Source: Antedon mediterranea | Taxonomy: Eukaryota > Animalia > Echinodermata | Assembly (NCBI RefSeq): GCF_964355755.1 | Contig: NC_092672.1 | Coordinates: 2,728,001 to 2,792,000 of the forward strand | Direction of reading: 5' to 3' | DNA length: 64,000 bases | Shown: positions 3,059-44,198 of the stretch, in pieces | How the letters are laid out: every line of letters begins with the position of its first letter | Numbering within the stretch: position 1 is the stretch's first letter | Notes under the pieces: model-generated | Told to the model about the DNA's origin: nothing | Seen by the model: the letters and a program-made list of their open reading frames with translations, nothing else | Databases searched by the model: none | Position numbers and translations under genes: made by a program

Positions 3059-6000
3059 CTAAAAACAACGAAAGTTATTCAATAGAGAGAATCTTATACT
3101 TAATCATATTCTATTAAGCATTTTATATATTATTATTATTATTCTTGATATAAATTCATCTTAATTACCGTATTTATTTATATTTTGTTTATTTTAGTAG
3201 GCCTAAGTTGGTAACAATTATAGTGGTTAGGTTGTACTTTTTACAGGCCTAGATAATGTCCATCCTGAAATATTTTATAAAAAATTGCTATAATATTAAT
3301 TTATTATAGCAATTTTAAACTATTTACTTAATAGCAGACTCTGTGGTATAGATATTTGTATTGTGCTTTTTGTAAATTATTAAGGTTTTAGAGGGCGACA
3401 AACACATTTTCTTTACTATCAGAAACAGAAAACTGTAATTGATCAAGAGGGCAGCAAACCGAAAAATAAATTTATCACAAATCAATACTGTAGATGTACG
3501 TTCAGGCCGGTAGACCACGATATTTCAGATTTAAATCAAACTAACTCGGTCAAAAAACGATATATGTATGTAAGTTTCATATTTAGTTGTTAATTTCTTA
3601 ATTTTCGCTGCAATAAAAGAGTTGTTCATATGCGAGCGACTGCACTGAGAGAAACAATTTAATTGTTGAAATACGATTGTTGGAATGAGGTGTAGACAAG
3701 AGGAATTGTTCTATATTGTAATTATATAATATCATACTAATCCTAATTATAATTACATTGTTCATGTTTTTTTCTTTTATAAGACTTGTTTAAAACTTAA
3801 CTCAATAAATCAAAATTTACAACAAGAAATTTTCTACTGCATAAAAAAATCGTCTTATTTAATTATACAATACATTCTAATAACTAACCTGTTTCTGACT
3901 CAACCTTATTCTGCGTTTCTTGTCCTTTGTTACTAGTAGTCGACACATCCACTGTTTAATAAATAAATAAATAACTGTCTTAATAATTATTATCAAACCG
4001 ACCTTATTACTTTACAATTATTCTACCGCATAATAAACTTCTTTATAGGAGAAAACTTTTAGAGTTTACAGTTATTAACTAACCTGTTTCTGCTTTTTGC
4101 GTTCCTTGTTCTTCGTTACTAGTGTTCGGCACATTTACTGTTTAATGATAAATTAGAATAGATAAATAGTTTAGTTAATTAAAAATAATTATAAATTTCA
4201 TAATATATAAATACAATTCTAATATAAAGAAATACAGTTTTCATTGCAGAAATATTCCAATTTAAGTAGTCAAGATATATTGCAATTAAGGTCTTTTTTT
4301 ACCAAAAAAAAAAAATCCTTTTTAGTAACGCACTTGTATATAGAGGGCGACAAACACAAGTTGAAATCAATCAGAAGGAGAAAACTTCAATCTCTGTACT
4401 GACATGATCGGAAATGACGTCAAACTGGTTTTTTTATAAACCAAAAGAGACAATAGGCCTAACCAAAGTAAAACAAGACTAAATATTCAACAAAATCCGA
4501 GATTAGATACATTTTACAGAGAGCATAAATTTAGAAACCTTCCACCCATTGAATTGTAATATTATTTGTTAATCTGTAACTCACCAGTTTCTGATTTAAC
4601 TTCTTTTTGTGTTTCTTCGTTAGACCTACCACTGGTCGGCGGCACTTCCTCTGTTAATAAAAATAACAGGAGAAATCTGAATTTACAATAATTTTAGGGA
4701 TTCATTTAAGCATAAATAATATCTAATTAAGATATAAAAAAACCTAAACCATTCGAATTAAATTCAAATAATGGCCAAACGAGTTTTGTTACATATTAAA
4801 CAAATCAATGGTGATGTGATTGATTGTTGTTTTCCCCGTAAATATTTGTAGTATGCCCTGCTCAACCTACCAGTTGATTTTAGAGTCAAAGTTTTCTAGA
4901 TTTATAATAATCCTTCTTTTCACAAATTTGTTGAATTAGATTAGGAATGATGAATGGAATGTATTTGTGGTTGATTTGGCTTCAATAATATCATCTCTAT
5001 ATTATATTTGTTCAATAATTGAAAACATGCCTCTGGATATCAATCAATCAATCAATTTATTTGGAAATTGCACCTTTACATCGGTGGCACACACAGTAAG
5101 TGGTGCATCCATATTAAACACAATTAACATAAAATGACGGATACTTAAGCTAATTTACAAAGTTAAAAAATTTAAAAAAAAAAATTTAAAATTAGTACTA
5201 TATACTGTGGCAATATTTGTATGAGTTGATACATCATTTTAGTTAAATATATAGATATTGGTTCCATGTGTGTTAAGGAACCTCCATCTTTTATCGGTTT
5301 TCTCAATCGTCATATTCATTTATTTACAATAAGGTAAGTATAAAAAATGATGATAACGTTGTATCTTAATGAGTAGTTATTAAGCTATCGTCTAATAAAG
5401 GTGTTAATAACACTACCAAATATTGACTGGAAAACAATCACAATTATACAATATGTCGTGTTACGACTTGTTTGGTTCACACTAACGTAACGCAATAATG
5501 TAGACCCAACGCAAGCGAATAGACCAATGATAAGCGACAGTTTGAATAATGCATCGCTTGTGATTGGTCAATTCACGACGTTGCTAAATATTTAATGTAT
5601 ATCTCCAGGCCTCATAACAGTAACTAACCTGTTTCTGATTTAACTTCTTTTCGTGTTCCTTCATGACTACTGGTCGTCGGCAAACAATCTGAATTAATAT
5701 TAAGAGCGCAATTCAGCATAGAATAATTTATACAAAAAAAAACTATTTACCATTATATACACATTACCAACAAAATGAAATCATTTTGTTATTGTTTACT
5801 GTATGGCCAAACAGTTGTGACTAACCTGTTTCTGACTTCATATCTGTTCTCATTCTTGTGTTACTACTATGCACTTCTGATAGATAAAAACAAATACAAT
5901 GACTTTTACCTAATGAATAAAATGATTATTTCTAGATATTGTTTATTTTCAAAATAATACGTTTGTGAATGTTATTCAAATTGAATTGTATTATGTTATG

Positions 6001-7852
6001 GTTAATGTAGGCCCTATATACTGTAAATACAATACCTGATTCTGACTCAGACTCGTTCGCCTGCCTATTTTTCCTTTCTGTCATTTTGGATCCGCCGCTG
6101 TTATCCTCTGCTTGTATTCCTGGTTCGTTGTTAGGTCTACAACTGGTGGTTGGCATTTGTTCTGTTTAAAAGAATAAACTGAATTTACAATATGGTATCT
6201 ATCTCGTGAACAACCAATGATCGGAGTATAAAATCAGCTAATAATAACGTATTAATTTGGAAATTAGTTAGGTTTATAGAGGGCGACAAACACAATTTGT
6301 GATCGACAAAAAGTAAATCACAAATCTGAAATAAACCAACACAAAACCGTATATCATATTTATTCGAACAAACGCCTCTCTCAAATAAACGCCCCATTAA
6401 AACAACATTTTGTATGTAGGCCTACAAAGTAGAATTTATTGACTTTCATGATCTCTACAATTTAGCAAACATATTAATTATATTGATACAATTGTTAATT
6501 TTGTTACAATAACGGATTTTGTTATATCCGACTGCACAATGAGGTGTAGGCTATAAGACATGAATTGTTCTAATACTAGATATAATGTTTTTTTTCGTAC
6601 AGTACAGAAAACATAATTACTATTACTAATAACTCACTTGTTTCATGTTCTACCTGTACTATTTGTTCTTCGTCACTGGTGTTCGGTGCATTTACTGTTT
6701 AATAAGAAACAATACAAATACAAATAAATGATAAAATAATAATATTCTACTCCATCAAATCAAATTGGGAGCCTTAGTATAAAAATAAGATTAATTATAT
6801 TAGCGGCGGTAAACACGGGCATATATTTGTTGGTCATTGTGTGTACCTTTTTTATTCGGACATAATGCGTTGAAACACCGGTTCTCGTCAGATTACCGGA
6901 AGTTAAGCAATTCGTTGGCCTGGTTGCGTTTGGAAATACCTCCGTCTGGAAATATCGCGTCGGCTGCTGTTATAGACCAGTGGTGAAATGATGGGAATCG
7001 ATAGCTAGGATAGGCATGAGTTCGTCCATATCTGTACCATGCTGATTGTTGTGTCATTAGGCAAGATATGCTTTACTCTCTCATTGCTTTGTTCTAATCC
7101 AATTCTAAGTTACGCTTGGGGACGATAATAACTAGGCCTACTACCTTTAATGTGGATGTTTTACACATAGGCTATTCATATAGTATTCTTCAATTAATTA
7201 TTTGTTTGCTAATTCGTTCCTGTTACATACCTTGTGTCAGGCATTTCATCGTTGATGCCACTCCAATTTTGTTAAGAATGTTAATAAACTCTTCTTTTCT
7301 TTCTTCACAAAGTATTTGTCTTTGTTCCAAGTCTATAATCATACTCCAAGAGTCTTCATAATTCTTTAATGGATTGTTGAAGAGTGCATCAATTTTCTTA
7401 ACAGCAGCCTTTCTTAGTTCGTTTCCAAAATCTGCAATCCAGTGTCGATATGGGGTGAAATTTATAATTTGTATTTCTTGAACTTCGAAGAAAGATTGTT
7501 GAAAAACGTTGATAGCTCCAAACGTTTGGGTTACTTTTATCGTTTCATAAAGTAACTCCAGATTGCCTGGGCTTAAACGCCCTGTTTTCCTCAATGCATT
7601 CAGTAGATCTATCGTTGTGTTGGCTTTGTCTATGTCTGCTACTGAAATTAAATCGTGGTATAAAACCTTCAGCTGTCTGACGAGGTTGTTTTTATCATAC
7701 CATTCTGAAAAGTTCACCAAGTCCACATTAAAATCTATTTCTAAAAATATAAAAGTGGGAAAAAGAGAAGATTAGAAAAAACATTTTTAAAATTGTTCTA
7801 CTCGATGCAATACAAAAAAGACTATTTATTGTTTGTTACCTGTTGCCGCCAT
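462..7852 (-). CDS. NLR copy 1: tandem-DED + micro-exon linker + NACHT + LRR, about 1198 aa if all exons are included. Exons in transcript order: 7840-7852, 7231-7740, 6638-6694, 6036-6161, 5826-5876, 5629-5688, 4585-4650, 4084-4137, 3889-3951, 462-3058
   Basis: Walker A GEGGIGKT, Walker B LLLDGLDE, sensor-1 LTSR, winged-helix His (PPHKLIVE) and C-terminal LxxLxLxxN/C repeats. Every listed exon has GT-AG borders with phase-1 junctions, and the sum (3597 nt) is in frame. Confidence 0.88.
500..1200 (-). repeat. Four tandem ~177-bp (59-codon, two-LRR) units in NLR1
   Basis: The anchor ctgatagattgcaatcc recurs at 527, 701, 881 and 1058 (periods 174, 180, 177) and the units are near-identical in DNA. 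Confidence 0.9.
3889..6694 (-). other. Array of seven paralogous symmetric micro-exons (57, 126, 51, 60, 66, 54, 63 nt) encoding the NLR1 linker
   Basis: Each has a cag acceptor and a gttagt, gtgagt or gtattg donor, a length divisible by 3 and no stop. Shared peptide pattern x-V/M-P-x-T-S...E-V-K-S-E-T. Confidence 0.8.
5466..5585. mobile_element. Decayed Harbinger-like MITE, same family as 56136-56341, in an NLR intron (paralogous copy at ~32512-32630)
   Basis: Shares ttggttc(a/c)cacta..cgtaacg, aacgcaagcg..accaatga and gcttgtgattggtcaattcac with 56136-56341. Confidence 0.55.
6853..7135 (+). mobile_element. 5S rRNA-derived SINE (SINE3-like) or 5S pseudogene with a SINE body
   Basis: 6853-6970 resembles animal 5S rRNA (gttgaaacaccggttctcgtc.gat.accg..agttaagcaa) but is degenerate at box C. 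It is followed by a tgttgtgtc.ttaggcaag motif resembling SINE central domains. Confidence 0.7.
7231..7740 (-). other. NLR1 exon encoding tandem death effector domains (170 codons)
   Basis: DED1 pattern LKVL..DLIS..DLLNAL..GRLSPGNLELLYE. DED2 starts FTPYRHWI..GNEL and includes LEQRQIL, resembling caspase-8/cFLIP tandem DEDs. Confidence 0.75.
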
Positions 7853-10080: not shown

Positions 10081-10193
10081 AGCTCTGTCTACACTATCAA
10101 ACTACTTTGAAATGGTAGTTCTATGACATCATCATGTCCATATGGACACATCACACTTTTTGTCACATAGAGTTTGACAGTGTAGACAGAGTT
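10081..10193. mobile_element. Harbinger-like MITE (paralogous, more complete copy at 59877-60036 with TAA TSD)
   Basis: TIR agctctgtctacactatcaaact / agtttgacagtgtagacagag. Confidence 0.7.
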
Positions 10194-10430
10194 CAAACAT
10201 CACGTCGCGATAGTTGTTTCAAAATACCCGCGCACAAAAACCAAGCAGCCAAGTAATGCGTGCGTAACTATTAGGAAGAGCAAGAGCTCAAATCATAAAT
10301 GTTACATTAATGATTATTGATTAACTAATCAGTGTAAAATAACAAATATTCGACCAGATAGAGGACAACATTTTAGCCTCAACGCGTCAAATGTTTGTGG
10401 TCTTCGTCTAAAAATCTAGGCCTGTGTGTG

Positions 10431-11233
10431 CATCCAGATGGATGATATATATGTTATGCGCGATTTGAACGATTTGCGCAATTTGAAATTGCGCAAAAAA
10501 AATCCTTGCGCAATTTGAATTGAAACATGTGTTTCAAATTGCGCAAGCAACGTATTAAATTGCGCAAGTAATCTGCAAATTGCGCAAGGTTTTTCGACAG
10601 ATTGTGAAATCATGCACACCCATATTTTTATAGTAATTTCTAAGAATGATTCAAAATTAAAGATAAATATCGCATTTCCTTATTTTAGTAGTGCAAATAT
10701 TGTTATAAGTTAGCATACCGTCGAAGAACCGACGAAGGAAAACGAAGCGGTGGTGTTCCACCAGGCGGGCGCGGCGCGGGCGGCCGGCTATACTACTCTA
10801 GCCTAGCTAGGGTCTGGACTACTGATACTGACAAGGTTACATATTAAAAACTTAAAAAGTGAGTATTAAACATTATCTTCATTGAAATGGTCTTATTTAT
10901 ATAATAAAATACTAAATGTTAAACTCCTCTGCCTAGTAGGCCTAGCCTAGCCATGTATGGGAAAATTTACAGTTCGTTTTCAAATTGCGCAAAGGTGTCA
11001 TATTGCGCAAGAACTATCTTGCGCAATTTACAAATTGTGCAGCGCAATTTAAAATTGCGCAAAGATTTTCTTGCGCAATTTGGAATTGCGCAAGTTGATT
11101 GCGCAATTTGAAATTGCGCAAAAAAATCCTTGCGCAATTTTAAGAATTCTTTGCGCAATTTCAAATTGCGCAACGATTTTTTTGCGCAATTTCAAATTGC
11201 GCAAATCGTTCAAATCGCGCATAACATATACAC
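10431..11233. mobile_element. Foldback/MITE with TTGCGCAA-rich terminal inverted arrays
   Basis: TIR tatatgttatgcgcgatttgaacgatttgcgcaatttgaaattgcgcaaaaaaa is mirrored at ~11180-11231. The paralogous site near 60280 is empty. Confidence 0.8.
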
Positions 11234-12192
11234 AAGTCATTCCAAGTCAGCCTGAGGAGAGTATGCCCAGCCGGCGAACTACCACAGGAGTCATGCAGTT
11301 CAAACTCAGTGGCATGGTGAGTTAGCCTGCCTACATTGGTGTCAATCTAAGTACATAAAACCTTTATTGAATATGATATTTTATACTTATTTATTCATTT
11401 TACTTTAATTTACAATATCATTCTATTTTATAATATATTTTTTTTGGAAGAAGGAAGTCTGTTTTACTAACTTTATGGGAAATTCGGAGGTTGTTGTTGG
11501 TACATACTTAATCTGAAAAAGGATGCATTCTTTCAATGGCGCAGATCCGTTTTTAATACTTTTAGTCTACTTATGCTGGGAGGGCCAGGGGGCCGCCAAG
11601 GGCCCCTTGTTGGGGTACAGGGGGCGAATCCCCCTTGGAAGACTGGCTCTTTGTTTGAGTAATTTATAGGTTGTTTCAATCGATTTGTGAGAACATACAA
11701 ATTCCGCTCGGAAGAATACAATTATTTTTGCGGGTTACGCACTTTTTAGGCACTGGTCCCTTTAGGCAAAGTTGAGCTGCCGACCAAAGAATGTATTTAC
11801 CCAAAAATCCCTCTAGGCAATGGTGAATAAAGACAATGTTGAGTAAAGACAATGTTGAGTAAAACCTTTATACTCAATAATGATGGCGAGTACCTGGCCC
11901 GGTTTTCACGATGGGTCAACTTTGCGCCATAATATTTAGACTAGAATTTTTCTTTGGTTGAATCATGGATTAAGGAATCCCTTAATCCATGATTGAATAT
12001 GCCATTTTAATGTCACAATAGTTATTCACCAACAAAATTATTTACCTTACAAAATTGTAACATAGTCAAATTGTCGGTCAGAAAATGTTTTTTTTTTAAT
12101 TTAACCATTTATGGTTTTTTTTTTTTGAAATAATTATTTATTAAGATTTTATTAATCTTCATTTTTAAAGTTTTTGGGAGAAAACACATCTT

Positions 12193-15100
12193 TAAACTAA
12201 TTTCTTTATGATCATACAATCTTAAGTACAATCAAAATTTCAAAAATTTAGACGAACAAAACAGAGAAAAAAAAGAGTTCTACTGTAGCATGTAGCTTTT
12301 ATTAATCTGAACACTAGAGGGCACTATTACATTCAACAGATACTTCTTTCAGTTCTCTTAGTATATCATGTGACCTTAGTATATCATGTGACTAAAACAT
12401 GCTTTAAAATGTTTGTACAGAACATGATACTTTAAAAAGTAAATAATTAAACAAAAGTTCCATATAAGGTAATATGTCTTCCATATACCTGATTTGTTTA
12501 GTGGAATGATACTAATAATAGCTACACTACTTTTATATGACAAATTTAATACACGTATAAACATCCCTACATACAGAATCACTGTTGTTACCATCTACAC
12601 AAGCTAAACATTTGGTATTCAATATTCTTTGATAAATATTTTTTTAACAAAAAAGAAAGTGAACATAATTTTAACATTTTTTTCTTATTTAGCATTGTGA
12701 TTGATGCTACCATATCCATTCATCATCCTATGCCTACCATAAAAGGGAAGACTATAGGAATTATTTGTAGGCTAAATACAACAAAAATATTTATACAATA
12801 TTTTTAGTCACAATATATAGCGACGTCTAAAGACACTAAACAAATTTGGCAAGTAGTTTACAGTATAATAATAAATAATTGAGAAATTCTCATAAAACAC
12901 TATTAAAATAATATTTTTGTATTTAAATTACGTTTTTTTTTTTGCATTTTACATGATTGCTTTAGGTTGCTTAATTTGCATACCAATTATTCAGTTTTGT
13001 TGACGGATGAGAATTTATAGATTTGGTCACATTTCATTAAGTTTTATTACTGTTTTAGAAAAAAATGATCATGGAAAAATTGGTGTGCATTAAAACAAAA
13101 ATTAATTTCTTTAATTGTTATATTCTGTTGTGATTAGTAATCAATAATTTGTGATTATAAATAGTGGGTATAATAAAACAAAATGGTGGTTCATTTAACT
13201 TTAATTAAGAATTAAAACGATAAAACATGTTTATTACGATCAATATTATCACATGAAAAGCCTATGCAATAATGTGATAATGTACTAAACCCCAAAACAA
13301 ACATGAAATTGCATTCATAAGTGGCGCGGCATGTAACAACATAGCCTGGTGATACATTCAATGTATTATTCCTGTGTGACTGATATTCAACCATTCCTTG
13401 TTCCAATTATCCTATATCCTCAATAGATAATGTATCTCCCTGAAGATACAACTAATAATTAGCAAGTCTTTTTTTTTTACAAAATAAGTTAAAGAAAATT
13501 TAAATATATTGTTTGTATATTCAATTTCACACCATAGTACTTTATCATTTTAGTGTGAACATTATACTCTCATTACGAAAGGCTACAAATATCATAAATA
13601 ATATATTACAATCTATACATGGCGTTCCCATCCGCTTTATATATAATAACATAAGTGACTTATTAACTACATATACTAATTAGGTGGTGTATTAAACATA
13701 AAGCTACTGTACTTAATAAATAGTGAGTGAAAAAAAATAGACACATGCAATAACTTGGAACATCTGAAATTTATGGAGTGCCCCCTCTATTTGGATGACT
13801 CAGAAACAAATGTAGGCTTGGTAGTCCAGCTTGCATGGTAACAGAAGTAGGTCGGTTCCTTGTAATCAAGTTATAATGAGAACATGCGATTCCCAACACA
13901 CATTCTCCATGGGGGAAAATTCCATACGAAAAGAGTAAGAGTAAATCAGGTCGAGGCAAATGACAAAGATAGGCATTGGGAAGAAACCTCTGGGAACCGA
14001 TTAGGGACATCACCATTTGGGCATTTTTTTTTTAAAGCAATGCGACATGCATTTACATTAACACTACTTTGCTTCAAATTCTAATCCTGTTCAGTTAAGT
14101 TTACAAGTAACCAATATCAATGTCCCGTATCAATGCGCAAAACAGTATATGTACCATTAGCTCTGCCCAAAGCTTATTACCATTAACTAGGTCATTTACC
14201 ATCTACACCCAAATTTAAAAACCCCAAATATTTGTTAATAAATAGCAATAAACACATGGTATGAAAAATGAGTCTTAAAATAACCACAAAAAATGTATAA
14301 ATAAATTATAAAAAATATTACTAAATATACAAAATAGTTCTTTAAAATTATTTGCTTTCGCTAAGTTGGATATGATATATCTCTTTTACAGAAATCAATA
14401 TGTTAAATCTTGATTAAATTTCACGTAATTTTTCAGCACCATTATTTACTGCCTTGTCGGGCCTAACAACATGTTTAATAAATGTGACACACTTATCGAC
14501 AAGTCACTATACATTTGAAAACATGAAATGAAAAATGCAAAGTAATTAGGAGAAAGCATGGGTGAAAATGATCACGACACCTTTTTTACACTAAGGCAAA
14601 TTCGTTGTAGTCTTGTCAACACAAATAAATACCTTAATGTTTGATATCATGACAGTTTTATTCATGTTTAATAGATCAACAGGAAACAAGATAGTAATAA
14701 GTGTTTTAAAAAAATAAGTTTTAAAATTTCCCCAAAAAATACTGAATTATTTTATTGGGAGTAGTAGTAGATAATTTCTTTCAATAAACATTATTTATGT
14801 TCATATTAGGTTAAAAAAGGAAAAATTAACGAATAGGGCCTATTCGTTAATTTTTTAAGCCTACATTTATTTTGAACAAATAAATTAAAAATTAAAATTT
14901 CACCATTATTGTGAGTAATTAATAATAAAAATGTATATAAATATATATATATATACATTTTTTAATATGTTGGAATGTAAAAATAATTGTGTACATTTTA
15001 AATATTCATAATAAAAATCAGTTACATTATTTATTTAAACACTAATATTTAATTTAAATAAAACAATTGTATACTATAACATTAGGAATTAAATGGGCTG

Positions 15101-15408
15101 AGTTTATTAAAAGTAAAATTTTATATAAAAATGATTCTATTGTAATTTGAAACTCTGATGAATTGAATATTTCATTGGAAAGAATAAAAAAAAAAATTAC
15201 GATTCATTTTTTACAACAATCTTAACTTGTTATTTATTTCCTCAATCTAGAATTTGAGTAAATTATTTTGTTAAAATTTCGGCAACAAATTAGAAGTAAC
15301 AAATAGATACAGATAGATGGATATCACAATTTAATAGTGAAAATTGGTAGACGGGTAAAACAAACCAGATTTATACTTAAGTTGCACCAAAAGCTATTGA
15401 ATGTATTC
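12193..15408 (+). repeat. Segmental duplication, near-identical to 60843-64000
   Basis: The two stretches match line by line with only scattered SNPs and short indels. Confidence 0.95.
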
Positions 15409-17509
15409 ATGGCTATGTATAACTTTCAAACACTAATTTAGTCACGAATGTCTCAAAATACCCAACGTAATGAAATCCACGAATTGAGATTTGGGATATT
15501 TCATTCAGTTAACTGGCTTTAACTGACCCCATTCTAATAAATCCAAAGTATTTTTTTACAGTTTGAAAAATGCAAAGTTTTAGAATTCTAAAATAGAATA
15601 AATAACTGTTAAAGTGTTATAATATTTTAAATAACTTGAGCACCTTTCAAAAAAAAGTTAATAAAAAATGCCATAAAACATTTTTTTTAAATAACACTTG
15701 TTTCGACACAATTTGCAAATGTTTTATTTGAGATAGAGTTGTAAATTTAATATGTTACTAGATAGAAAACCAAAAGTATTTATTATGAGTCCATCATGTA
15801 TATCATGTGTGCAGGGCACAGGCATTCATGACACTAATAATAATGTGAGAAAATGTATAAAGTATATTTTATTGGGCAAGAGAAGGCTAAGTTATACACT
15901 GTTAAGAAGTCAATACTTTAGCTGTTCTATTGTCAAAAATGTTGGCGTGTTTTTAATACAACCTGAATAAAAAATAGCGTACGATTATTATACTTAAAGA
16001 ATGGAGAAATAAGTTACAAGTACATAACTGCAAGGAAACAAATGGTTGTTTTTATCTATTTTGAGATGTTTCTTTGTAAGGTTGCTTTCTCCATCCTTAT
16101 GGTACTGTACCTTTCCTCAGTGTTGTCGAGGAAATGCTTCCCTAAATCGGGGTGGCAAACCTTGCAATTACACTGGATTACCTATGCAAAAACTTACGTC
16201 ACTTATAAGGGCAATACTGATCACTGCAATTTAAAAAGGGCAGACATTTTTATTCTTTGAGTTTATGATTGTTAGTTCGGAGCTTTATGTGGGAAAGTAA
16301 ATATATATAGTTGTAGAATCGGTGACCTTTAGAGATTTTACTGTAAATACTTAAATAGAAGTGCCTGGTTTGAAAGATGCAATGTGAATGGGAACTTAAC
16401 AATGATATTAACATGTTTATTTTAAGATGTATGCTAACAATTGTATATTTCTATTGACTGCTCTACTATAATATATTCTGTGTAATCAAAATATGTATTT
16501 TATATTTTAATATGAGTTGATGTGTGCAATAATGCATTAATAAAAATGAAGAAGCTGGATTCGTCAAACCAACTTGTGTCACTTAACCATTTTAAATGTT
16601 AAATGTAAAGACAGAATTTGTACATGATTACATGTACTTTATTTGTCTATTTGGTTTTTAAGTAAATTGAAGAGTACGAAATATTATTGTACGATTTTGT
16701 TATAGGCGGACCCAGGATGGAGGGGGGGGGGGGGAGGGGGTTTGGAGTTTCCAGATCTCCTCCATGTGCAGAGGTAATCAAATCTACTGATTGTTATTGC
16801 ATATGTCAATTGAAGTATTGCCGACCTCTGACATATCTGTAGACTGTCACAAGTCTTATACTATGTTAGGCCACCCCTCAGGACGTGTTTTGATTTTGTC
16901 TAAAGTATTATACGTATGAAACGCCATTTTTGCCAAAATATTTATAACCTAGACTAGCTTATAAACCAAAGTTTGCTTGCTTGTAGCTGTGTTCATTAAT
17001 TATAAAAAGAAATAAGTATGTTTCTATACATACCGACCCACAACCCCTCCTCTGACAAAACTCTGTTACCTGGGGAAAGTTTTCAGAATACATTAAACAA
17101 TTTGATTTTGGCCTTAAGTATTAAGCGGACTTGGCTTGCCATACTCAGGTATCCAGTTTACTAGGTGTTTCTTTTATGATATTGTAGTAGGATAACACAC
17201 ACAAAACAAAAGGGGACAAATTAATAGTTTATGTCATTTATTCCACTAATATAAATATAAAATTATGTTTAAAATTGATTTAATATAATATTGCATATTA
17301 TCAATTTAAGTTTTAAGACATTTGCTGCAGCACGCCTACCTGTCCAATATGGTTATGCTGTTACAGAATTTTTGGTAAAACCGATACTCAACATTTTATA
17401 ATTAAGCACCCGTATTATTGATTTTTATTTATCTTTTTTTTATCTCCTGCGTGTCTACCATATACTTTATATTTTATTGGTAATTGAATAATTAAATTAA
17501 AGGCCAACA

Positions 17510-19670: not shown

Positions 19671-20061
19671 GCTTGCAAACGTTAAATTTTATTGTAAATA
19701 AATCCTAAGATGCATGGTTGAACCTGATAAATAAAATAAAAATAATCATATTATTATAGTAAATTAGTTGAAAACAGCATATTAATTAAACGTTTGAAGA
19801 CGGTGTTCTTTCTGAGTGCTATTAAGATGTCAACGACTAGGCCACTTCTACTCTACTAATAAAATTATATTAGTTAGTAATTACTAATAATAATTATAAC
19901 ATTAATACTGTAATACTGAAATTGCACAGCTGGTTTACCACACTGGCACCGTACTTGCCACACCCCTGCCAACAGTCACAAGCTATATGCAAAAAAGTGC
20001 AGGTACTCTTTATCAGGATATCCTAGGTAGGCCTACTACTAGCCTACTAAAGCTACTACTG

Positions 20062-21085
20062 TTCTTGATAACAGACAACAAAGAGTCAAAGTGCGTCATG
20101 CTTCGTCCAGTTGGGCTGATGTAATTAGTGGAGTTCCACAAGGCTCGGTGTTGGGCCCTACATTGTTTGCATTATATATAAATGACCTACCAAAGTATGT
20201 GTCTAGTCATATAAAGCTATTTGCTGATGATACAAAGATCTACTCAGTAGTTAACAACAGAAATGATGGGCAATTATTACAAGAATCTTTAAACAATGCA
20301 CTGCAGTGGAGTAAAGAATGGATGTTGGCTTTTAATAAAAGCAAATGCATGGTGATGCACTTCGGGCATTCAAATGTTCATTTTAAATACCAAATAGATG
20401 AAGTTGAACTGGAAACAGTTGAGAAAATAAAGGACCTAGGAGTACTAATTACTAATGACTGTAAACCAAGCCAACACTGCGCCAAAGTATCTCAGCGGGC
20501 CATGAACTGTTTAAGAAGCATCAGAAGGACTTTCGTATATATGGATAAGGATTGTTTTAACGTCATCTACAAGCATTATGTACGCCCACATCTCGAATTT
20601 TGTGTTCAAGTATGGAATCCGTATCTTCAAAAGGACATAAATGTAATTGAAAGAGTACAACGTCGTGCGACTAAATTAGTTCCATGTATCCGTTCATATT
20701 CATATGAAGATCGTTTAAAGTTTCTTGGCCTAACAACCTTGTATGACAGAAGAATTCGAGGTGACCTGATTGAAGCATATAAAATTGTTAAAGGTTTCGA
20801 GGGTGTAGCCAAGGATGACTTTTTCCAAATGAGAAGTAACATTAGCAGAATTACTCGAGGGCATCACCTGAGATTTTTCAAGCCTACTTTCCATAAAGGA
20901 TTGAACTGTAGAAGACATACCTTCTCGCAACGAGTAATTAACCATTGGAACAGTTTACCAGCCGACGTTGTCAATTCTGAGACCGCTAATACCTTCAAGA
21001 ATCGCATCGACACAATGTAGTTGATATGGGGTTTAAAAAGGCACATCGCCTAAACTTTCCCATTATAACTAAACTAAACTAAACT
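20062..21085 (+). mobile_element. 5'-truncated CR1-type LINE (C-terminal RT part of ORF2, stop at 21020)
   Basis: GVPQGSVLGPTLF, FADD, IERVQRRATKLV, RRIRGDLIEAYKI and TRGH motifs, short 3' UTR and (aaact)n tail. Absent from the paralogous region at ~57140-57190. Confidence 0.93.
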
Positions 21086-26448: not shown

Positions 26449-28231
26449 TCTGCTGCCCTCTACAGGTTTCAGTTTGTCAAACTTTTTAAACAAGATCAAC
26501 ATTACTGCTGTTTTAATCAAAAATTGTATCATGGTTTTAATTGTGATTGTAAATAATATTTGTAGTTATCTATTATATTCATTGCAACCACTATTTTTAA
26601 TTCATCATTACAAGAAACCAATTTAGGATGTAATATTGTAAAAAATTGATTATAACCAAACCTTTAAAATTTATGAATACTGTATTAAAATCAACGATAT
26701 TTTATAAACAATATATAATATAAACGGTGACTTTGTTGTAAAATAATGTGTAACATTAAAGTAAAGGAATTATCACCAGTTTATTTGCATAGTGTATAGT
26801 TTTTATTGAAACAGCTAAAATATATATTAATCGAAGACTTAGACCTTTACAAAAAATGACAGAAATTAAATTTAGAGTAAGTTAGGTCCATCCCCTCAAA
26901 CACTCTCCCCTGCCAAACCATTGTATTGTCTCTATTATAACACTACATCTGTATCCTCACTTTAAAGTGATCTGAGCATCTCGCAAATAGTAAATCAAAA
27001 ACACTCCTTGTATTAGAATTATTAGGTTGGCATTTTGACTGAACTTTAAAAAATAACATTTTAATTTACTTCTGGTTTAATTGATTAGGAGGAGATGGAT
27101 AGATTTTTGAATGTTTTTATTAATTTGTTTTTTAATGGGTTTGCTACTAAAGCTCTGTCCACACTGGAGAGCAAGAAGTGTGATGAATTGTAAAGCTCTG
27201 TATTTACACTTTATGTGACATTATGATGTCATATCTCTAACATATTTGGGCATATCACACTTGTTTATATTTAGACTAAAAAAATGAAGTGATTTTGGGT
27301 GACAAAGGGTGGACCTCGCGAAACTAGTGCTACCCCTCCCACTGGACCTGCCCCTGATCACATGATTATGACATCATGGTCTCTGCAGGTTTATTTTTGA
27401 CATACTGTAGACATCACACAATACTAAGAAAAGATAACATTTAAAAAAACTTTATTATTAATTTTGTCCTCAAGAAAAAGTTATTTTACTTGAGTCATTG
27501 GAACAACGTTCATAATAATTAACATTACTATCAATATCAACAATAATTACATAAAAATATTCCAAAAACTTAACAATAATATACAAAATAATAATATTTA
27601 ATAAGTATACACAGATGGAATATAACCGTACAGAACATATTACTTTAAAATGACAATTGTTATTTATTAATAATTATACTGCAAAGTAGATTATTAATAT
27701 ATTATTAAATGATTTAATTTTTGTTTTCTTATAATAACCATTATATAATACTATAGGCATTCATACACAACTATCACATAATGTAATCACTGTATACACA
27801 TTCACATTCACTACAAATGAAATCTATCAAGATATAAGTTCTAGACCTATTTAGGCTAGGCCTAGGCCTACAGAGTTTTCAGCTAGTATACTATAGTATA
27901 GTTGCAGCTGTTTTGACTACGCGTATGATGTAGACACGCGCGCGACAAGGTAGATGAATATGGATGAATTTGATGATCGCGACCAAAATATATAACTAAA
28001 ACAAAATTTATTTCTTTAAAAACCACAATTATAATAACAAATTATTACTAAACAGTTTTTATAACATATCAATTAATTACATGCCATTTTTAGATTTACA
28101 GATACAATTCTATTTTTTAATTACAATATTGACACTTGTATACTGCGACTTTTACAAATGCGCTCTTTATATCAATTGGGATGTAGTGTACATTTACATA
28201 CTGTAGTTATTGGCGGATGATGATCGTGAAT

Positions 28232-31200
28232 TTAATAACAGAAAGGTATCTTTCTCTTCAAACACACTTCGGTCAAGTAATTAATTTTTTCACCTGATAG
28301 ATTGCAATCCCTCATGTTAAGCCACTCCAGCTTAGGACACATAATGAGTAATGAAGACATTGAATTAACATCAAGGTTGTGAAGGTTATTACCAGAGATA
28401 AAGAGATAACGTAGTGCTAATTGAACTTGTTTGAGAGAACATTCTGTACCCAAGTGATTGATGACGTCACCTGATAGATTGCAATCCCTCATGTCAAGCA
28501 CCCTCAGCTTAGGACACATAATGAGACACAGTGAATTAACATCAATGTTGTGAAGGTTATTACCAGAGATATCGAGATAACGTAATGCTAATTGAACTTG
28601 TTTGAGAGAACATTCTGTAACGAAGTGTTTGAATGCATCAGCGTCTTTTAATAGATTCTCAATAATCATGTATTCGTCATATTCAGCTATGGCTAAAATG
28701 TGTGCAATTACTTTTCCCTTGCACTCCCCTGCTATCCTACTACTACTAAAATGCGCGATTTCTTCATCAAAATCCTTCATGCAATAAAGTTGCATAATCA
28801 GACGGTTGAAATGTCCATCACACTGTTCACCTGGACTTATGTGTTTAATAAAAAATCCTATGGAGGTAGCTATATCGGCCGAAGGATTCTTTATTTCTAA
28901 ATCTTGAATGTGATAATTCAAAGCATTTACCACAGCATCTTTATGGTTTTTTTTAACAAACTTTAAATTACTCGGCAGAGAGCGATATGTTGACAAACTA
29001 TTTGTAACCCAGTGCTTTAAAAAAGCATTAGCGTTAGCACCAAGGAAACCAATTGCAAACTCTCTTGCTTTGTTTAAATACTCACTTTCTCTTATCACCT
29101 GCCATTCAGTATCATCCAATGGTGTAAGTATTCGTCTTACATCTTCTGTGAATTCATTCTCGATACCATCACTTTCACATAATTTGCTCAAGTACAGTCC
29201 TACTAATGACTCAACTATCAACTTGTGAGGAGGCATGAAAACACTTTCAAAGTTAGATTTTAAAATCGGTGCTTCTTCATAAACAAATCCAAGTTTTACG
29301 GCCATGTCAATCATATCTCTTGTAGAATGTGTATCATTCAAATCTTTCATGTTTATTGAAAGTTGATTCTCTTTTAATTTTTTATACATACATTTTCCTA
29401 ACAAAATCATAGCATGTATATATTTTGCTGGAGTGTGTTCAAATTTAGAAATTTTGGCAAATTGTTTTTGTTTGTTAAACTGATTTAAAATACTACGGAA
29501 TAGTTGTTTAAAAAGATCAGAACTGTCACTAGGAAGACTTTCATTATCCTCCCATAGAATACAAATTGAAAGAAGTAACATCGGGTTTTTGCACATCAAA
29601 TAGGCTTCTTCATGTTTTCTCCCAGCCAAATAACTGTGAATATCCAACTCTTCTTTAAGCGACTCTCCCAATTCTGGTTTTCCAAAATACTTAAAATGAT
29701 TGACAATATACTTACCTATACTATCTTTGTTAAACCCCTTAACCCTTACATGTACGTTGCACGATTTTATGAAATAATTGATGTTTTCTGATCGGGACGT
29801 AAGCACTACAGTACTTTTTTTAAAGCTATTCCCGCTGAAAATTCTGGTTATGGTTTGATTATTAAATCTTAATTCATCTAATCCATCTAGTAGCAAAACA
29901 ATTTTGCCTTCATGTATCTTTATAAATTTCTTAATTAACCGTGGATCATTTGGGAGATCTGTTTCTAAATTAAAATCTTCCATATCCAGTTGCTTTACAA
30001 TTAGGTCAAATATGTTATCACCTTCTTCTAAATCTCGTATACTTAAAAAAAATACAATTTTACCTTCAAATGCTTTAATTGATTGACATGGAGTGGCCCA
30101 GTTGAATGATAAATGTCTTAATATGGTAGTTTTACCAATACCTCCCTCGCCCTCTATAAGAGCTTTACATCCAGGTTTAGAACTGATAACATCAATCACT
30201 TCTTCTAATGTTGTTGGTTTGCTGGTTTCTTTATTGTTTTCACTTTCCGTTAGTAATTCCATATCGGTAAACATATGTGAAATGTCAACTTTGTATATAT
30301 CATTCATTGTTGCAGGTGTAAATGTACTGGCCTGTTTGCACTTTTCCGTTTGTATTTTAATCAGATATGTTTGTATCTTTTCTAAAAACAAAGAAAGTTA
30401 TTCAATAGAATATTATACTTAATCATATTCTATTAAGCATTTTATATATTATTATTATTATTCTTGATATAAATTCATCTTAATTACCGTATTTATTTAT
30501 ATTTTGTTTATTTTAGTAGGCCTAAGTTGGTAACAATCATAGTGGTTAGGTTGTTCTTTTTACAGGCCTAGATAATGTCCATCCTGAAATATTTTATAAA
30601 AAATTGCTATAATATTAATTTATTATAGCAATTTTAAACTATTTACTTAATAGCAGACTCTGTGGTATAGATATTTGTATCGTGCTTTTTGTAAATTATT
30701 AAGGTTTTAGAGGGCGACAAACACATTTTCTTTACTATCAGAAACAGAAAACTGTAATTCATAAAGAGGGCAGCAAACCGAAAAATAAATTTATCACAAA
30801 TCAATACTGAAGATGTACGTTCAGGCCGGTAGACCACGATATTTCAGATTTAAATCAAACTAACTCGGTCAAAAAACGATATATGTATGTAAGTTTCATA
30901 TTTAGTTGTTAATTTCTTAATTTTCGTTGCAATAAAAGAGTCAACCTTTTTCTGCGTTTCTTGTCCTTTGTTACTAGTAGTCGACACATCCACTGTTTAA
31001 TAAATAAATAAATAACTGTCTTAATAATTATTATCAAACCGACCTTATTACTTTACAATTATTCTACCGCATAATAAACTTCTTTATAGGAGAAAACTTT
31101 TAGAGTTTACAGTTATTAACTAACCTGTTTCTGCTTTTTGCGTTCCTTGTTCTTTGTTACTAGTGTTCGGCACATTTACTGTTTAATGATAAATTAATAG

Positions 31201-34200
31201 ATAAATAGTTTAGTTAATTAAAAATAATTATAAATTTCATAATATATAAATACAATTCTAATCTAAAGAAATACAGTTTTCATTGCAGAAATATTCCAAT
31301 TTAAGTAGTCAATATATATTGCAATTAAGGTCTTTTTTTACCAAAAAAAAAATCCTTTTTAGTAACCACTTGTATATAGAGGGCGACAAACACAAGTTGA
31401 AATCAATCAGAAGAAGAAAACTTCAATCTCTGTACTGACATGATCGGAAATGACGTCAAACTGGTTTTTTTATAAACCAAAAGAGACAATAGGCCTAACC
31501 AAAGTAAAACAAGACTAAATATTCAACAAAATCCGAGATTAGATACATTTTACAGAGAGCATAAATTCAGAAACCTTCCACCCATTGAATTGTAATATTA
31601 TTTGTTAATCAGTGTAACTCACCAGTTTCTGATTTAACTTCTTTTTGTGTTTCTTCGTTAGACCTACCACTGGTCGGTGGCACTTCCTCTGTTAATAAAA
31701 ATAACAGGAGAAATCTGAATTTACAATAATTTTAGGGATTCATTTAAGCATAAATAATATCTAATTAAGATATAAAAAAACCTAAACCATTCGAATTAAA
31801 TTCAAATAATGGCCAAACGAGTTTTGTTACATATCAAACAAATCAATGGTGATGTGATTGATTGTTGTTTTCCTCGTAAATATTTGTAGTATGCCCTGCT
31901 CAACCTACCAGTTGATTTTAGAGTCAAAGTTTTCTAGATTTATAATAATCCTTCTTTTCACAAATTTGTTGAATTAGATTAGGAATGATGAATGGAATGT
32001 ATTTGTGGTTGATTTGGCTTCAGTAATATCATTTCTATATTATATTTTTTCAATAATTGAAAACATGCCTCTGGATATCAATTAATCAATCAATTTATTT
32101 GGAAAAATTGCACCTTTACATCGGTGGCACACACAGTAAGTGGTGCATCCATATTAAACACAATTAACATAAAATGACGGATACTTAAGCTAATTTACAA
32201 AGTTAAAAAATTAAAAAAAAAAAATTAAAAATTAGTACTATATACTGTGGCAATATTTGTCTGACATGAGTTAATACATCATTTTAGTTAAATATAGAGA
32301 TATTGGTTCCATGTGTGTTAAGGAACCTCCATCTTTTATCGGTTTTCTCAATCGTCATATTCATTTATTTACAATAAGGTAAGTATAAAAAATGATGATA
32401 ACGTTGTATCTTAATGAGTAGTTATTAAGCTATCGTCTAATAAAGGTTTTAATAACACTACCAAATATTGACTGGGAAACAATCACAATTATACAATATG
32501 TCGTGTGTTACTTGTTTGGTTCACACTAAGGTAATGCAATAATGTAGACCCAACGCAAGCGAATAGACCAATGATAAGCGACAGTTCGAATAATGCATCG
32601 CTTGTGATTGGTCAATTCACGACGTTGCTTAATATTTAATGTATATCTCTAGGACTCGTAACAGTACGGTAACTAATCTGTTTCTGATTTAACTTCTTTT
32701 CGTGTTCCTTCATTACTACTGGTCATCGGCACTTCCACTTTATAAATATATAATTAACAGAAAACAATCTAAATTAATATTAGGAGCGCAATTCAGCATA
32801 GAATTAATTTATATATAAATACTATTTCCATTATAATTATACACATTACTAACAAAATGAAATCATTTTGTTAGTGTACGTCTATACATATTGGTAACAA
32901 AATTAACAATTTTCTGACTTCATATCTGTTCTCATTCTCTTGTTACTACTATGCACTTTCTCTTATAAATAAAAACAAATCTAATGACTTTTACCTAGTG
33001 AATGAAATGATTATTTCTAGATATTGTTTATTTTCAAAATAATACGTTTGTGAATGTTATTCAAATTGAATTGTATTATGTTATGGTTAATGTATATACT
33101 GTAAATACAATACCTGATTCTGACTCAGATCCGTTCGTCTGCCTCTTCTTCCTTCCTGTCATTTTGGATCCGCCGCTGTTATCCTCTGCTTGTATTCCTT
33201 GTTCGTTGTTAGGCCTACAGCTGGTGGTTGGCAATTCTTCTGTTTAAAATAACAAACTGAATTTACAATATTATCTATCTTGTGAACAACCAATGATTAG
33301 AGTATCAATCCAGCTAATATACAACATTACGTATTAATTAGGTTTTTATAGAGGGTGACAAATAAAATATGCTCAACAGAAGGCAGTAAAATAAAAAAAA
33401 AATAAAAAATCTGTAATAGATGTTTAGTCAGCGATCTTTCAGATTAAATACAAAACCGTATATCAAATTTATTCGACTAAACGCCTCCCTTTGAATACAC
33501 GCCTCTCTCAAATAAACGCCCTATTAAAACATCGTTTTGTATGTAGGCTTACAAAGTAGAATTTATTGACTTTCATGATCTCTACAATTTAGCAAACATA
33601 TTAATTATATTGATGCAATTGTTAATTTTGTTACAATAACGGATTTTGTTTGATAATTAGTTCCTGTTACATACCTTGTGTCAGGCATTTCATCGTTGAT
33701 GCCAGTCCAATTTTGTTAAGAATGTTAATAAACTCTTCTTTTTTTTCTTCACAAAGTATTTGTCTTTGTTCCAAGTCTATAATCATACTCCAAGAGTCTT
33801 CATAATTCTTTAAAGGATTGTTGAAGAGTGCATCAATTTTCTTAACAGCAGCCTTTCTTAGTTCGTTTCCAAAATCTGCAATCCAGTGTCGATATGGGGT
33901 GAAATTTATAATTTGTATTTCTTGAACTTCAAAGATAGATTGTTGGAAAACTTTGATAGCTCCAAACGTTTGTGTTACTTTTATCGTTTCATAAAGTAAC
34001 TCCAGATTGCCTGGGCTTAAACGTCCTGTTTTCCTCAATGCATTCAGTAGATCTATCGTTGTGTTGGCTTTGTCTATGTCTGCTACTGAAATTAAATCGT
34101 GGTATAAAACCTTCAGCTGTCTGACCAGGTTGTTTTTATCATACCATTCTGAAAAGTTCACCAAGTCCACATTAAAATCTATTTCTAAAAAAATAAAAAG

Positions 34201-34289
34201 TGGGAAAAAGAAAAGATTAGAAAAAACATTTTAAAATTGTTTTCGATGCAATACAAAAACACCATTTTTTGTTTATTACCTGTTGCCAT
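28232..34289 (-). CDS. NLR copy 2: tandem-DED + reduced micro-exon linker + NACHT + LRR, about 971-989 aa. Exons 34280-34289, 33675-34184, 33114-33239, possibly 32908-32961, 31623-31688, 31125-31178, 28232-30381
   Basis: Same NACHT motifs as copy 1, an uninterrupted 719-aa ORF, an intact DED exon and phase-1 junctions. Confidence 0.87.
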
Positions 34290-41567: not shown

Positions 41568-44198
41568 ATATTAGGAAGATACAGAAAAAACTTGAATATA
41601 GACTTTCAATACAAGCCATTTAGGTGGTATATAATGTATTGTCAATAAAGGTCGTTGTGTCCCATTTATGTAGAGATTCAATGTACAACCATAGAAACCT
41701 TTTGTTTTTACAACTCATCATGTCCATAATACAGGACAAGTCGAAAATTCATTCTATGCGCATACAGAAAAATGAGCATGCGCAGAATGACTATTAGACT
41801 CAATAGCTGTGCTGTAAAAACAAAAGTGGCTAAGTGTTTCGTTCGTTCACCTTCACACCAAGTGTATCTAAAATAGCACCTGATTAATTTGTATACGCAA
41901 AGGCAGTTTGAGTAGCATTCTATAGGATTTTACTTGGAATATTTAGATGTGGTAAAACTTCACTTATTTTTTAATTTTTCAGATAATAAGCCGCCAGGGT
42001 TGAATCCTATGAAAGCAATGTACATGTTTGATGACTTAGCAATGCAACGTAATTACACCGGTGTTCCATTTTCACAATCCGTCCCAACGTCATTCTTTGA
42101 AAAAGTAAGTCAAAAGAAATTACGAAAACATGAAGATTGTTTGAAGGTTTGCATGACGAAGAAAAACAAAGGTTGGGGCATATCATGTTACCGTACCACA
42201 AAGGTTGGGGCATATCATGTTACCGTACCACAAAGGTTGGGGCATATCATGTTACCGTACCACAAAGGTTGGGGATATCATGTTACCGTACCACAAAGGT
42301 TGGGGATATCATGTTACTGTACCACAAAGGTTTGGGGATATCATGTTACTGTACCACAAAGGTTGGGGGATATCATGTTACCGTACCACAAAGGTTAGGG
42401 GATATCATGTTACCGTACCACAAAGGTTGGGGAATATCATGTTACTGTACCACAAAGGTTGGGGGATATCATGTTACCGTACCACAAAGGTTGGGGAATA
42501 TCATGTTACCGTACCACAAAGGTTGGGGGATATCATGTTACCGTACCACAAAGGTTGGGGATATCATGTTACCGTACCACAAAGGTTGAAGGGATATCAT
42601 GTTACCTTACCACAAAGGTTGGGGGATATCATTTTACCGTACCACAAAGGTTGGGGCATATCATGTTACCGTACCACAAAGGTTGGGGGATATCGTGTTA
42701 CCGTACCACAAAGGTTGGGGCATATCATGTTACCGTACCACAAAGGTTGGGGGATATCATGTTACTGTACCACAAAGGTTGGGGATATCATGTTACCGTA
42801 CCACAAAGGTTGAGGGATATCATGTTACCGTACCACAAAGGTTGAGGGATGTCATGTTACCGTACCACAAAGGTTTGGGGATATCATCTTACCGTACCAC
42901 AAAGGTTGGGGGATATCATGTTACCGTACCACAAAGGTTGGGGGATATCATGTTACCGTACCACAAAGGTTGAGGGATATCATGTTACCGTACCACAACG
43001 GTTGGGGATATCATGTTACCGTACCACAAAGGTTGGGGCATATCATGTTACTGTACCACAAAGGTTGAGGGATATCATGTTACCGTACCATAACGGTTGG
43101 GGATATCATGTTACCGTACCACAAAGGTTGGGGGATATCATGTTACCGTACCACAAAGGTTGGATGGATATCATGTTACCGTACCACAAAACTGACTTTC
43201 AATGTGTTGGGAGGATTAGAGTTTCTCTAAATGTATATTAAATCATACTTTGTTACAATTTATAAATTTCATTTTGTCATTCTAGATTCTTTGACGGCAC
43301 ATAGATTTTTGACCGACATCCAGATGACCTTGAAGAAGTATCAAGACAATTATGGATAAGAATGTGGTCAAAGGTCAACTAGTTCCAAGCATTTATTATT
43401 TCTATATAATATAATTATATTAACTTAAAAATAATTTTTTTAACAGGATAAAGAAATTTCAGATCCCACATCCGTTCTTGAGGTATGTGAAGATTAAATT
43501 TTTTTTTATAAAACTTTTTTTTTGGCAATCAAAATTACAAAAAACTGGATTAATATTTTTGTTGATTGGGGTGAAAATTTAAATTTAATACTATATTATG
43601 ATATATGATATGATATCTATTGTCATATCAAATCTACATCTTCAATTATTTTTAGGCAGTCCTGGCTGCTGGAATGTCTGAAGAGGTCGCTAATAAATGC
43701 ATGTCAAAGGTCAAAGATTAATCAACAAAGGAAGAGTTAAAAAGAATAACAGGCAATGCACTCGAAAGTGGTGTAAGTAATTTGAATTTAAAGTTTATTT
43801 TTTATTTTTAAAATTAATTCAATTCACAGTATATATTGGCGAGTCTGTAGTATACAATTACATATTCAAATAAAAAACGTGATTTTAATTTGTAGCCATT
43901 TGGCCACCATGGATATTAGCTCACAAAGATGGAGAAGTAAAGACATTTTGGGGAATAGATAAAATACCTCTTTTAGCTCATGTAATAGGTAAAAACGCAT
44001 GCAAATTATCAAATAATACTTGTAGTAGGCATACATTTAGTATTTTAAAATCACTGTATTATTAGCAGTATTGTCATCATATATTTGTCAATGTTTTCAT
44101 TTTCATTAGAAATTAATACTGTGATAATATTTTTTTTAACTTTTATACTTACAGGTGAAAAATGGGAAGGTCCATTAAAACCATCATCAAAATTATAG
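41568..44198 (+). pseudogene. GSTK1: GSTK1 pseudogene (exons 2-8)
   Basis: Exon 1 not found, exon 2 3' end disrupted, 13-nt deletion in exon 4, TAA at 43719-43721 in exon 6 and a 1-nt deletion in exon 7. The last exon is identical to the functional copy. Confidence 0.92.
42167..43190 (+). repeat. Minisatellite, about 32 units of 31-33 bp (caaaggttgggg(g/c)atatcatgttaccgtacca)
   Basis: Head-to-tail units without spacers. Confidence 0.95.

What the first reader, a model, noticed from the sequence alone, without database searches (positions are those of the whole stretch)
28232..30900. NACHT-LRR exon is more divergent than the adjacent intron
Seen: intron 30415-30940 is almost base-identical to 3095-3620, while just across the acceptor the exon has dense replacements (DKCSQASIFTPAIMNNRY versus EKCKQASTFTPATMNDIY; YMWATPNQSNNIF versus FNWATPCQSIKAF). 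Inference: either recent gene conversion or recombination put a shared 5' module (DED plus linker) onto different sensor exons, or strong diversifying selection acts on the exon. The single-exon NACHT-LRR behaves like a swappable cassette.
Basis: partly seen in the sequence, partly recalled or inferred. Interest (0 to 1): 0.7.

Follow-up and report, generated by a model that had tools for sequence, protein, structure and literature searches.

The report
Feather-star immune genes swap intron DNA
Two neighbouring feather-star immune-sensor (NLR) genes differ by only 1.3% over a 2.1 kb mostly intronic stretch but by 14% in the adjoining sensor exon, likely because that stretch was recently copied from one gene to the other by gene conversion, an ordinary process in duplicated gene clusters.

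Summary
Observation confirmed. Genes A (462-7852) and B (28232-34289) are intact tandem DED-NACHT-LRR paralogues of Antedon mediterranea. Exon dS is high (0.29-0.36) and dN/dS 0.34-0.47, so diversifying selection on a young duplicate is excluded.

The near-identical part is not a whole 5' module. It is a 2.1 kb patch with two edges: intron 1, exon 2, upstream DNA and the 3' flank are all 9-12% divergent. The exon is not swapped as one cassette either: dS is 0.55 in the NACHT core and 0.13-0.19 on either side, and the closest paralogue changes along it. Across the family, DED and exon trees do conflict (AU p about 1e-5).

Best reading: patchy interlocus gene conversion in an NLR cluster, as in red/green opsins, lettuce RGC2 and zebrafish NLRs. 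Whether selection holds the edge at the exon is open. I found no paper on crinoid NLRs; this scan noted similar patterns on other DNA (abalone TRIM, feather-star ankyrin genes). Low to modest interest.

The parts
30345..32480 (-). Recently homogenised tract of gene B (about 2.1 kb; gene A counterpart about 3022-5435): 3' half of intron 2, micro-exons 3 and 4, remnant of micro-exon 5, last intron, first 36 nt of the big exon
   Evidence: 28 of 2090 mismatches in 30382-32480; 3' edge 30337-30358, 5' edge 32445-32714
28232..30381 (-). Gene B NACHT-LRR exon (phase 1 acceptor at 30381/30382)
   Evidence: Pfam NACHT 71.8 bits, LRR_1 30.2 bits; spliced model identical to P0119
29150..30169 (-). NACHT plus following helical core: oldest block between A and B
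   Evidence: dS 0.551, dN 0.123, omega 0.22 over 338 codons
30170..30343 (-).
   Evidence: dS 0.134, dN 0.120, omega 0.89, not different from 1
28235..29149 (-). C-terminal helical region and LRRs of gene B
   Evidence: helical part dS 0.185, omega 0.73; LRR units pN > pS in 8 of 10 unit pairs
33675..34184 (-). Gene B DED exon (likely tandem DED)
   Evidence: Pfam DED E 2e-8, 34.5 bits, cut-off 35.9; c-FLIP tandem-DED chains E 6e-4; 10 of 510 differences to A
34280..34289 (-). Gene B first coding exon (start codon)
33114..33239 (-). Gene B linker exon 2, outside the tract
   Evidence: 11 of 123 differences to A; 41 of 42 residues shared with paralogue P0005
31623..31688 (-). Gene B linker micro-exon 3 (66 nt)
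   Evidence: AG/GT ends, in P0119
31125..31178 (-). Gene B linker micro-exon 4 (54 nt)
   Evidence: AG/GT ends, in P0119
30942..30999 (-). Remnant of micro-exon 5 in gene B; its donor is lost with about 275 bases that gene A has
   Evidence: alignment, splice sites; absent from P0119
462..3058 (-). Gene A NACHT-LRR exon
   Evidence: Pfam NACHT 77.5 bits; matches P0004 at 100% outside that model's gap
3059..7852 (-). Gene A 5' part: start exon 7840-7852, DED exon 7231-7740, linker exons 6036-6161, 4585-4650, 4084-4137, 3889-3951
   Evidence: all AG/GT, phase 1; joined in a script they give an open frame of 1142 aa
27900..28231 (-). 3' flank of gene B, used as background divergence
   Evidence: 32 of 320 differences to A

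Best explanation
Genes A and B are tandem DED-NACHT-LRR (NLR) paralogues in which a 2.1 kb mostly intronic patch is nearly identical, likely because it was recently overwritten by interlocus gene conversion, while the NACHT-LRR exon kept older divergence. Shown: three age layers between the copies (tract 0.014; flanks, intron 1, exon 2 and exon ends about 0.10-0.19; NACHT core dS 0.55), purifying selection on the core, and conflicting relationships along the proteins. Inferred: the copies arose by tandem duplication (the 0.11 layer); mispairing of paralogues in the cluster lets patches be copied; the core of one gene came from, or has long been kept like, a more distant paralogue; the tract is one or several overlapping recent events. 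The result would be mosaic receptors that share a signalling end and vary in core and LRRs. Donor and direction are not known.
For: Two-edged tract, 28 of 2090 against 10-11% on both sides (p = 7e-14 and 3e-17). Exon dS 0.32 (bootstrap 0.26-0.40), omega 0.39 (0.30-0.50); ML omega 0.34. Four-fold sites: 22 of 81 in the core, 6 of 72 downstream, p = 0.003. Contigs of a second organism label are closer to gene B than gene A is in 5 of 6 exon and 3'-flank pieces (one tie), but further than gene A is in 2 of 2 pieces inside the tract (17 v 2, 12 v 6). Closest paralogue switches inside the exon in 6 of 7 triplets at p < 0.05, 4 of 7 after Bonferroni. DED and exon trees reject each other's placing of P0020 (p-AU 1e-5 and 4e-7). 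A second duplicated, non-coding block of the window shows the same two levels (11-14% then 0.5-3.7%).
Against: Only two copies are held as DNA, so donor, direction and number of events cannot be fixed. Second-organism pieces are short, unphased and only the longest few of about 9000 were shown; one piece across the tract's 5' edge is a near tie (11 v 10). Triplets were picked after seeing and are protein-level, where rate differences can add signal. The four genes that share the DED module also form one clade in the exon tree (90/94), so they are a subfamily, not captures of unrelated exons. The tract edge falls suspiciously close to the acceptor, which neutral conversion alone does not explain.
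Confidence: 0.75

Rival explanations
1. Conversion is frequent along the whole gene, and selection removes tracts that enter the NACHT-LRR exon, so divergence piles up there (opsin-type 'peak of divergence'). This adds to the best explanation more than it replaces it.
For: Edge 23-44 nt inside the exon; core dS five times the flank level; omega near 1 in the pre-NACHT part and pN > pS in 8 of 10 LRR unit pairs; precedent in PMC3924837 (passages).
Against: Intron 1, half of intron 2 and the 3' flank are not homogenised either (10-11%); exchanges do occur inside the exon; no partition has omega significantly above 1; the boundary was picked because it was striking.
Confidence: 0.3
2. A single unequal crossover at the acceptor joined one gene's whole 5' module to another gene's NACHT-LRR exon (cassette swap).
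For: Sharp edge near the acceptor; DED 98% identical in A and B; all coding introns are phase 1; P0020 has discordant DED and exon.
Against: The 5' part is not uniformly young: intron 1 11%, exon 2 9%, upstream 12%; the exon is itself a mosaic. At least two crossovers would be needed.
Confidence: 0.07
3. Young duplication with strong diversifying selection on the exon.
For: 167 replacements in 711 codons; first 50 codons have 11 replacement and 2 silent changes.
Against: dS is about 20 times the tract divergence; omega 0.34 overall and 0.22 in the core; the 3' flank is 10% divergent.
Confidence: 0.02
4. Assembly artefact: one intron sequence was placed in both genes, or the genes are two alleles.
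For: Tandem repeats of this kind are hard to assemble; run X1 may be the source of the assembly and is not independent.
Against: The copies differ by 28 substitutions and several indels in the tract. X1 pieces unique to B have depth 46 and 45.5; tract pieces have 64, 66.5 and 74.9, near the 69, 77 and 81 expected from two real copies (depth is a rough measure). Flanks and intergenic DNA are too different for alleles.
Confidence: 0.05
5. The tract is conserved by purifying selection on regulatory or splicing elements.
For: It holds three micro-exons.
Against: 2 kb of 27% G+C intron at 1.3%; gene B lost about 275 bases and an exon donor within it; the second organism differs there by 3.5-7.7%.
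Confidence: 0.03

Closest known systems
Human red/green opsin genes and leaf-monkey RNase1 duplicates (PMC3924837, passages read)
   Same: Tandem paralogues whose introns are more alike than the exon, through conversion.
   Different: There the flanking introns on both sides are homogenised and the selected sites are known; here only one 2.1 kb patch is young and no selected site is shown.
Type I plant NLRs, lettuce RGC2 (Kuang et al. 2004, not read; as described in PMC9406545, PMC3782705 and PMC4683639, passages)
   Same: Clustered NLRs, frequent sequence exchange, chimeric genes, introns homogenised.
   Different: Plant NB-ARC receptors studied across many accessions; here an animal NACHT family with one haplotype in hand.
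Zebrafish NLR-B30.2 family (10.1101/022061, passages read)
   Same: Expanded animal NLR cluster, NACHT on one large exon, domains with different synonymous divergence explained by conversion, shuffled N-termini.
   Different: In zebrafish NACHT is homogenised within groups; here NACHT is the most divergent block and the DED and linker are shared.
Invertebrate death-fold NLR expansions: sponge, sea urchin, amphioxus (PMC3879445, passages read)
   Same: DEATH/CARD/DED-NACHT-LRR layout and N-terminal domain shuffling.
   Different: Described from protein trees over long times; here a recent DNA tract is visible.

Membership tests
Metazoan NLR | NACHT domain | tested here: met
   PF05729 71.8 and 77.5 bits, cut-off 26.7; GEGGIGKT and LLLDGLDE present (Walker A and B labels recalled)
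Metazoan NLR | C-terminal leucine-rich repeats | tested here: met
   PF00560 30.2 and 26.6 bits, cut-off 20.6 for the whole protein; no single stretch passes alone
Metazoan NLR | N-terminal death-fold domain on the same transcript | tested here: met
   DED E 2e-8 (just under the curated cut-off), c-FLIP hits E 6e-4; spliced gene B equals annotated protein P0119. For gene A the join is my prediction; the annotated model P0004 starts inside the big exon.
Metazoan NLR | Ligand sensing and oligomerisation | not testable with these tools
   No functional data
Interlocus gene-conversion tract | Bounded stretch far more alike than its flanks | tested here: met
   1.3% against 10-11% on both sides
Interlocus gene-conversion tract | Paralogues closer than orthologues inside the tract, reverse outside | tested here: met
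   2 of 2 pieces inside, 6 of 7 outside with one tie, one straddling piece a near tie; short unphased contigs
Interlocus gene-conversion tract | Non-reciprocal transfer with known donor | not testable with these tools
   No genome held; a double crossover cannot be excluded
Opsin-type peak of divergence kept by selection | Low divergence on both sides of the exon | tested here: not met
   3' flank 10%
Opsin-type peak of divergence kept by selection | Tract ends enriched at the selected region across copies | not testable with these tools
   Only two copies as DNA
Exon-cassette shuffling | Exon exchanged as one unit with breakpoints in introns | tested here: not met
   Edge inside the exon; age and nearest paralogue change along it
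Exon-cassette shuffling | Compatible intron phases | tested here: met
   All coding introns phase 1 in both genes

The most novel reading that the evidence does not exclude
Crinoids run an NLR subfamily on a 'one signal, many sensors' plan: conversion keeps a common tandem-DED and linker end, while selection stops it at the entrance of the NACHT-LRR exon, so that NACHT cores stay distinct (and may not co-assemble) yet feed one caspase-8-type pathway: the mirror image of the zebrafish pattern.
Probability: 0.2. Interest if true: 0.5.

Novelty: new member of a known kind. Interest (0 to 1): 0.25.

Why it matters
It shows that the mosaic evolution known from plant NLR clusters, fish NLRs and opsins also shapes NLRs in crinoids, for which my searches found no paper. 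Practically, protein trees and duplication dates for this cluster will mislead, since one gene pair carries ages from 0.014 to 0.55. It would matter more if tract ends proved to cluster at the NACHT acceptor, which would point to what selection keeps different between invertebrate NLRs.

Tried and rejected
No whole genome is held, so paralogues were compared as proteins only. No RNA holder was listed; X7 is a guessed RNA run, and its one piece that ends exactly at the acceptor (30183-30381, no differences) is a weak hint only. Reads were laid on 27600-33300, so the DED exon and most of intron 1 were not checked in other runs. No listed X1 piece bridges the tract edge by 31 letters on both sides. 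The 'last LRR+cap' row was out of register by one codon and is dropped; one search replaces it, without gene A's last unit. The LRR row depends on which repeats are paired. My first spliced model of gene B had one acceptor 3 nt off; corrected. Conversion of the DED exon between A and B was considered and is not shown (6 of 109 silent sites against 39 of 352 in intron 1, p = 0.10). One of 7 triplets gave no signal (p = 0.13). Trees used 12 rows with a full-length DED match; P0005 and P0011 (37 residues only) and genes without this DED were left out. Searches with no useful result: (0 papers each; listing only), PMC12674619 (passages, nothing on intron homogenisation), PMC6771003 (passages; intron diversity lower than LRR). 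Nearby earlier findings: none. No fold or complex was run, as the question is about DNA history.

Full report
What is there. The window holds two minus-strand genes of the same layout, A (462-7852) and B (28232-34289), 20 kb apart. Each has a short start exon, a 510-nt DED exon, three or four small linker exons and one large NACHT-LRR exon; all coding introns are phase 1 with AG/GT ends. Pfam gives NACHT and LRR above their cut-offs and DED just under; the DED exon also matches c-FLIP tandem-DED chains (E 6e-4). The spliced gene B equals the annotated Antedon mediterranea protein P0119 letter for letter, and gene A's exon matches P0004. Many relatives lie on the same 38.96 Mb contig, so this is an NLR cluster of a feather star.

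The observation. The change point is 30345 (support 30337-30358), a few dozen bases inside the exon. The near-identity extends 2.1 kb upstream (28 of 2090) and then stops at about 32445-32714. Outside it the copies differ by 11.0% (5' half of intron 2), 8.9% (exon 2), 11.1% (intron 1), 11.7% (upstream) and 10.0% (3' flank). The DED exon differs by 2.0%, which purifying selection can explain (omega 0.17; silent sites not significantly below intron 1, p = 0.10).

Selection or exchange. Counting gives dS 0.287 and dN 0.135 for the exon; without the LRRs dS 0.32 (0.26-0.40) and omega 0.39 (0.30-0.50). A codon model gives dS 0.362 and omega 0.34. Silent divergence is thus some twenty times that of the tract, which excludes a young duplicate driven apart by selection. 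Within the exon the ages differ: dS 0.134 before the NACHT, 0.551 in the 338-codon core (omega 0.22), 0.185 after it; four-fold sites agree (22 of 81 against 6 of 72, p = 0.003). Omega is near 1 in the pre-NACHT part and pN exceeds pS in 8 of 10 non-independent LRR unit pairs, which fits relaxed or diversifying selection at the ends but is not significant.

Relatives. Four genes with a full DED module (A, B, P0013, P0120) share it at 94-98% while their exons are 65-77% identical; in other pairs DED is no better conserved than the exon (P0017/P0020: 60 against 84%). In trees of 12 rows P0020 joins these four by its DED and P0017 by its exon; each data set rejects the other's grouping (p-AU 1e-5 and 4e-7). 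The four still form one clade by their exons (90/94), so they are a subfamily. Along the exon the nearest paralogue changes: A is nearest P0013, P0002 or P0005 up to about residue 300 and B after; B shares residues 41-100 with P0013 at 93%. Permutation tests on 7 triplets, chosen after seeing that table, give p < 0.05 in 6 and pass Bonferroni in 4.

Other runs. Contigs of four runs were laid on 27600-33300. X1 has no difference to the window in 5 of its 8 listed pieces and may be the source. Its two B-specific exon pieces have depth 46 and 45.5, its three tract pieces 64, 66.5 and 74.9; two real copies predict 69, 77 and 81. The tool warns that depth is no copy number, so this is support against an assembly artefact, not proof. 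Runs X5 and X6 carry another organism label; their 16 listed pieces cover 10 distinct ranges. In the six exon and 3'-flank ranges they are closer to gene B than gene A is in five (11 v 37, 5 v 29, 18 v 43, 13 v 41, 12 v 25) and tie in one (26 v 26); upstream of the tract likewise (35 v 60). Inside the tract the order reverses (17 v 2, 12 v 6); a piece across the 5' edge is 11 v 10. This is the pattern expected if the tract was homogenised after, and the exons split before, the two organisms parted; the pieces are short, unphased and a small part of all laid.

A control in the window. The duplicated non-coding block 8849-15409 / 59213-64000 is collinear and shows the same two levels: 11-14% in its first 2 kb and 0.5-3.7% over about 12300-14700; it has no ORF above 97 codons. 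Young patches in old duplicates are therefore not confined to the NACHT acceptor, although I cannot exclude another origin for that block, which runs off the window.

Mechanism. Most likely A and B arose by tandem duplication (the 0.11 layer), and paralogues in the cluster have since exchanged patches: an old one that left the NACHT cores far apart, and a recent one that overwrote 2.1 kb of intron and linker exons. Gene B then lost about 275 bases with the donor of micro-exon 5 (paralogues P0005 and P0013 have this exon). The ages and the tree conflicts are shown; conversion as opposed to two crossovers, the donor, and any role of selection in fixing the edge are inferred or open.

Known cases and novelty. 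Introns more alike than exons through conversion is described for red/green opsins and monkey RNases (PMC3924837, passages) and for lettuce RGC2 NLRs (second-hand in PMC9406545; PMC3782705; PMC4683639). Domain-wise conversion is described for zebrafish NLRs (10.1101/022061, passages) and N-terminal shuffling for invertebrate NLRs (PMC3879445, passages). Searches for Antedon with NLR (0 papers) and crinoid, NACHT, NLR, echinoderm (5 listings, none on this by title; not opened) found no account for crinoids; subscription journals and supplements were not seen. Earlier unreviewed notes of this scan report similar patterns on other DNA; I did not test them. Verdict: real, well explained, a new instance of a known process; interest 0.25.

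Noticed in passing
window 29977-30141 (-): Annotated isoform X2 of gene B (P0001) lacks 55 residues inside the big exon, matching a 165-nt GT-AG stretch whose removal takes out most of the P-loop; if real, an NLR isoform unable to bind nucleotide. No RNA check was possible.
   Followed up: partly
window 1424-1675 (-): The annotated model of gene A (P0004) omits a 252-nt in-frame GT-AG stretch of the open exon and starts inside the exon, without the DED.
   Followed up: partly
window 8392-8724 (-): Broken second copy of the DED exon just upstream of gene A, 80% identical in DNA, with frameshifts and stops.
   Followed up: partly
window 8210-15409 and 59120-64000: Collinear duplicated non-coding block, 11-14% divergent at one end and 0.5-3.7% over about 2.4 kb; may be the upstream region of these genes or of a further copy.
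   Followed up: partly
proteins P0115-P0118: The same DED module (61-66% identity) heads Antedon proteins with a fibrinogen domain (PF00147); P0115 and P0116 show a hydrophobic stretch in between, suggesting DED-membrane-fibrinogen receptors.
   Followed up: no
window about 1690-1790 (-): Gene A has a 31-residue tandem duplication after the NACHT core that gene B lacks, and two more LRR units.
   Followed up: no
window 10448-11230: Element with 54-nt perfect terminal inverted repeats and many TTGCGCAA palindromes, MITE-like, present in only one copy of the duplicated block.
   Followed up: no
window 20043-21020 (+): 325-codon frame resembling a LINE reverse transcriptase end (likeness recalled, not searched).
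   Followed up: no
window 42166-43190: Tandem array with a unit near 32 nt, open in three frames.
   Followed up: no
window 32566-32620: Short high-copy repeat (very high depth in all four runs) close to the 5' edge of the homogenised tract.
   Followed up: no
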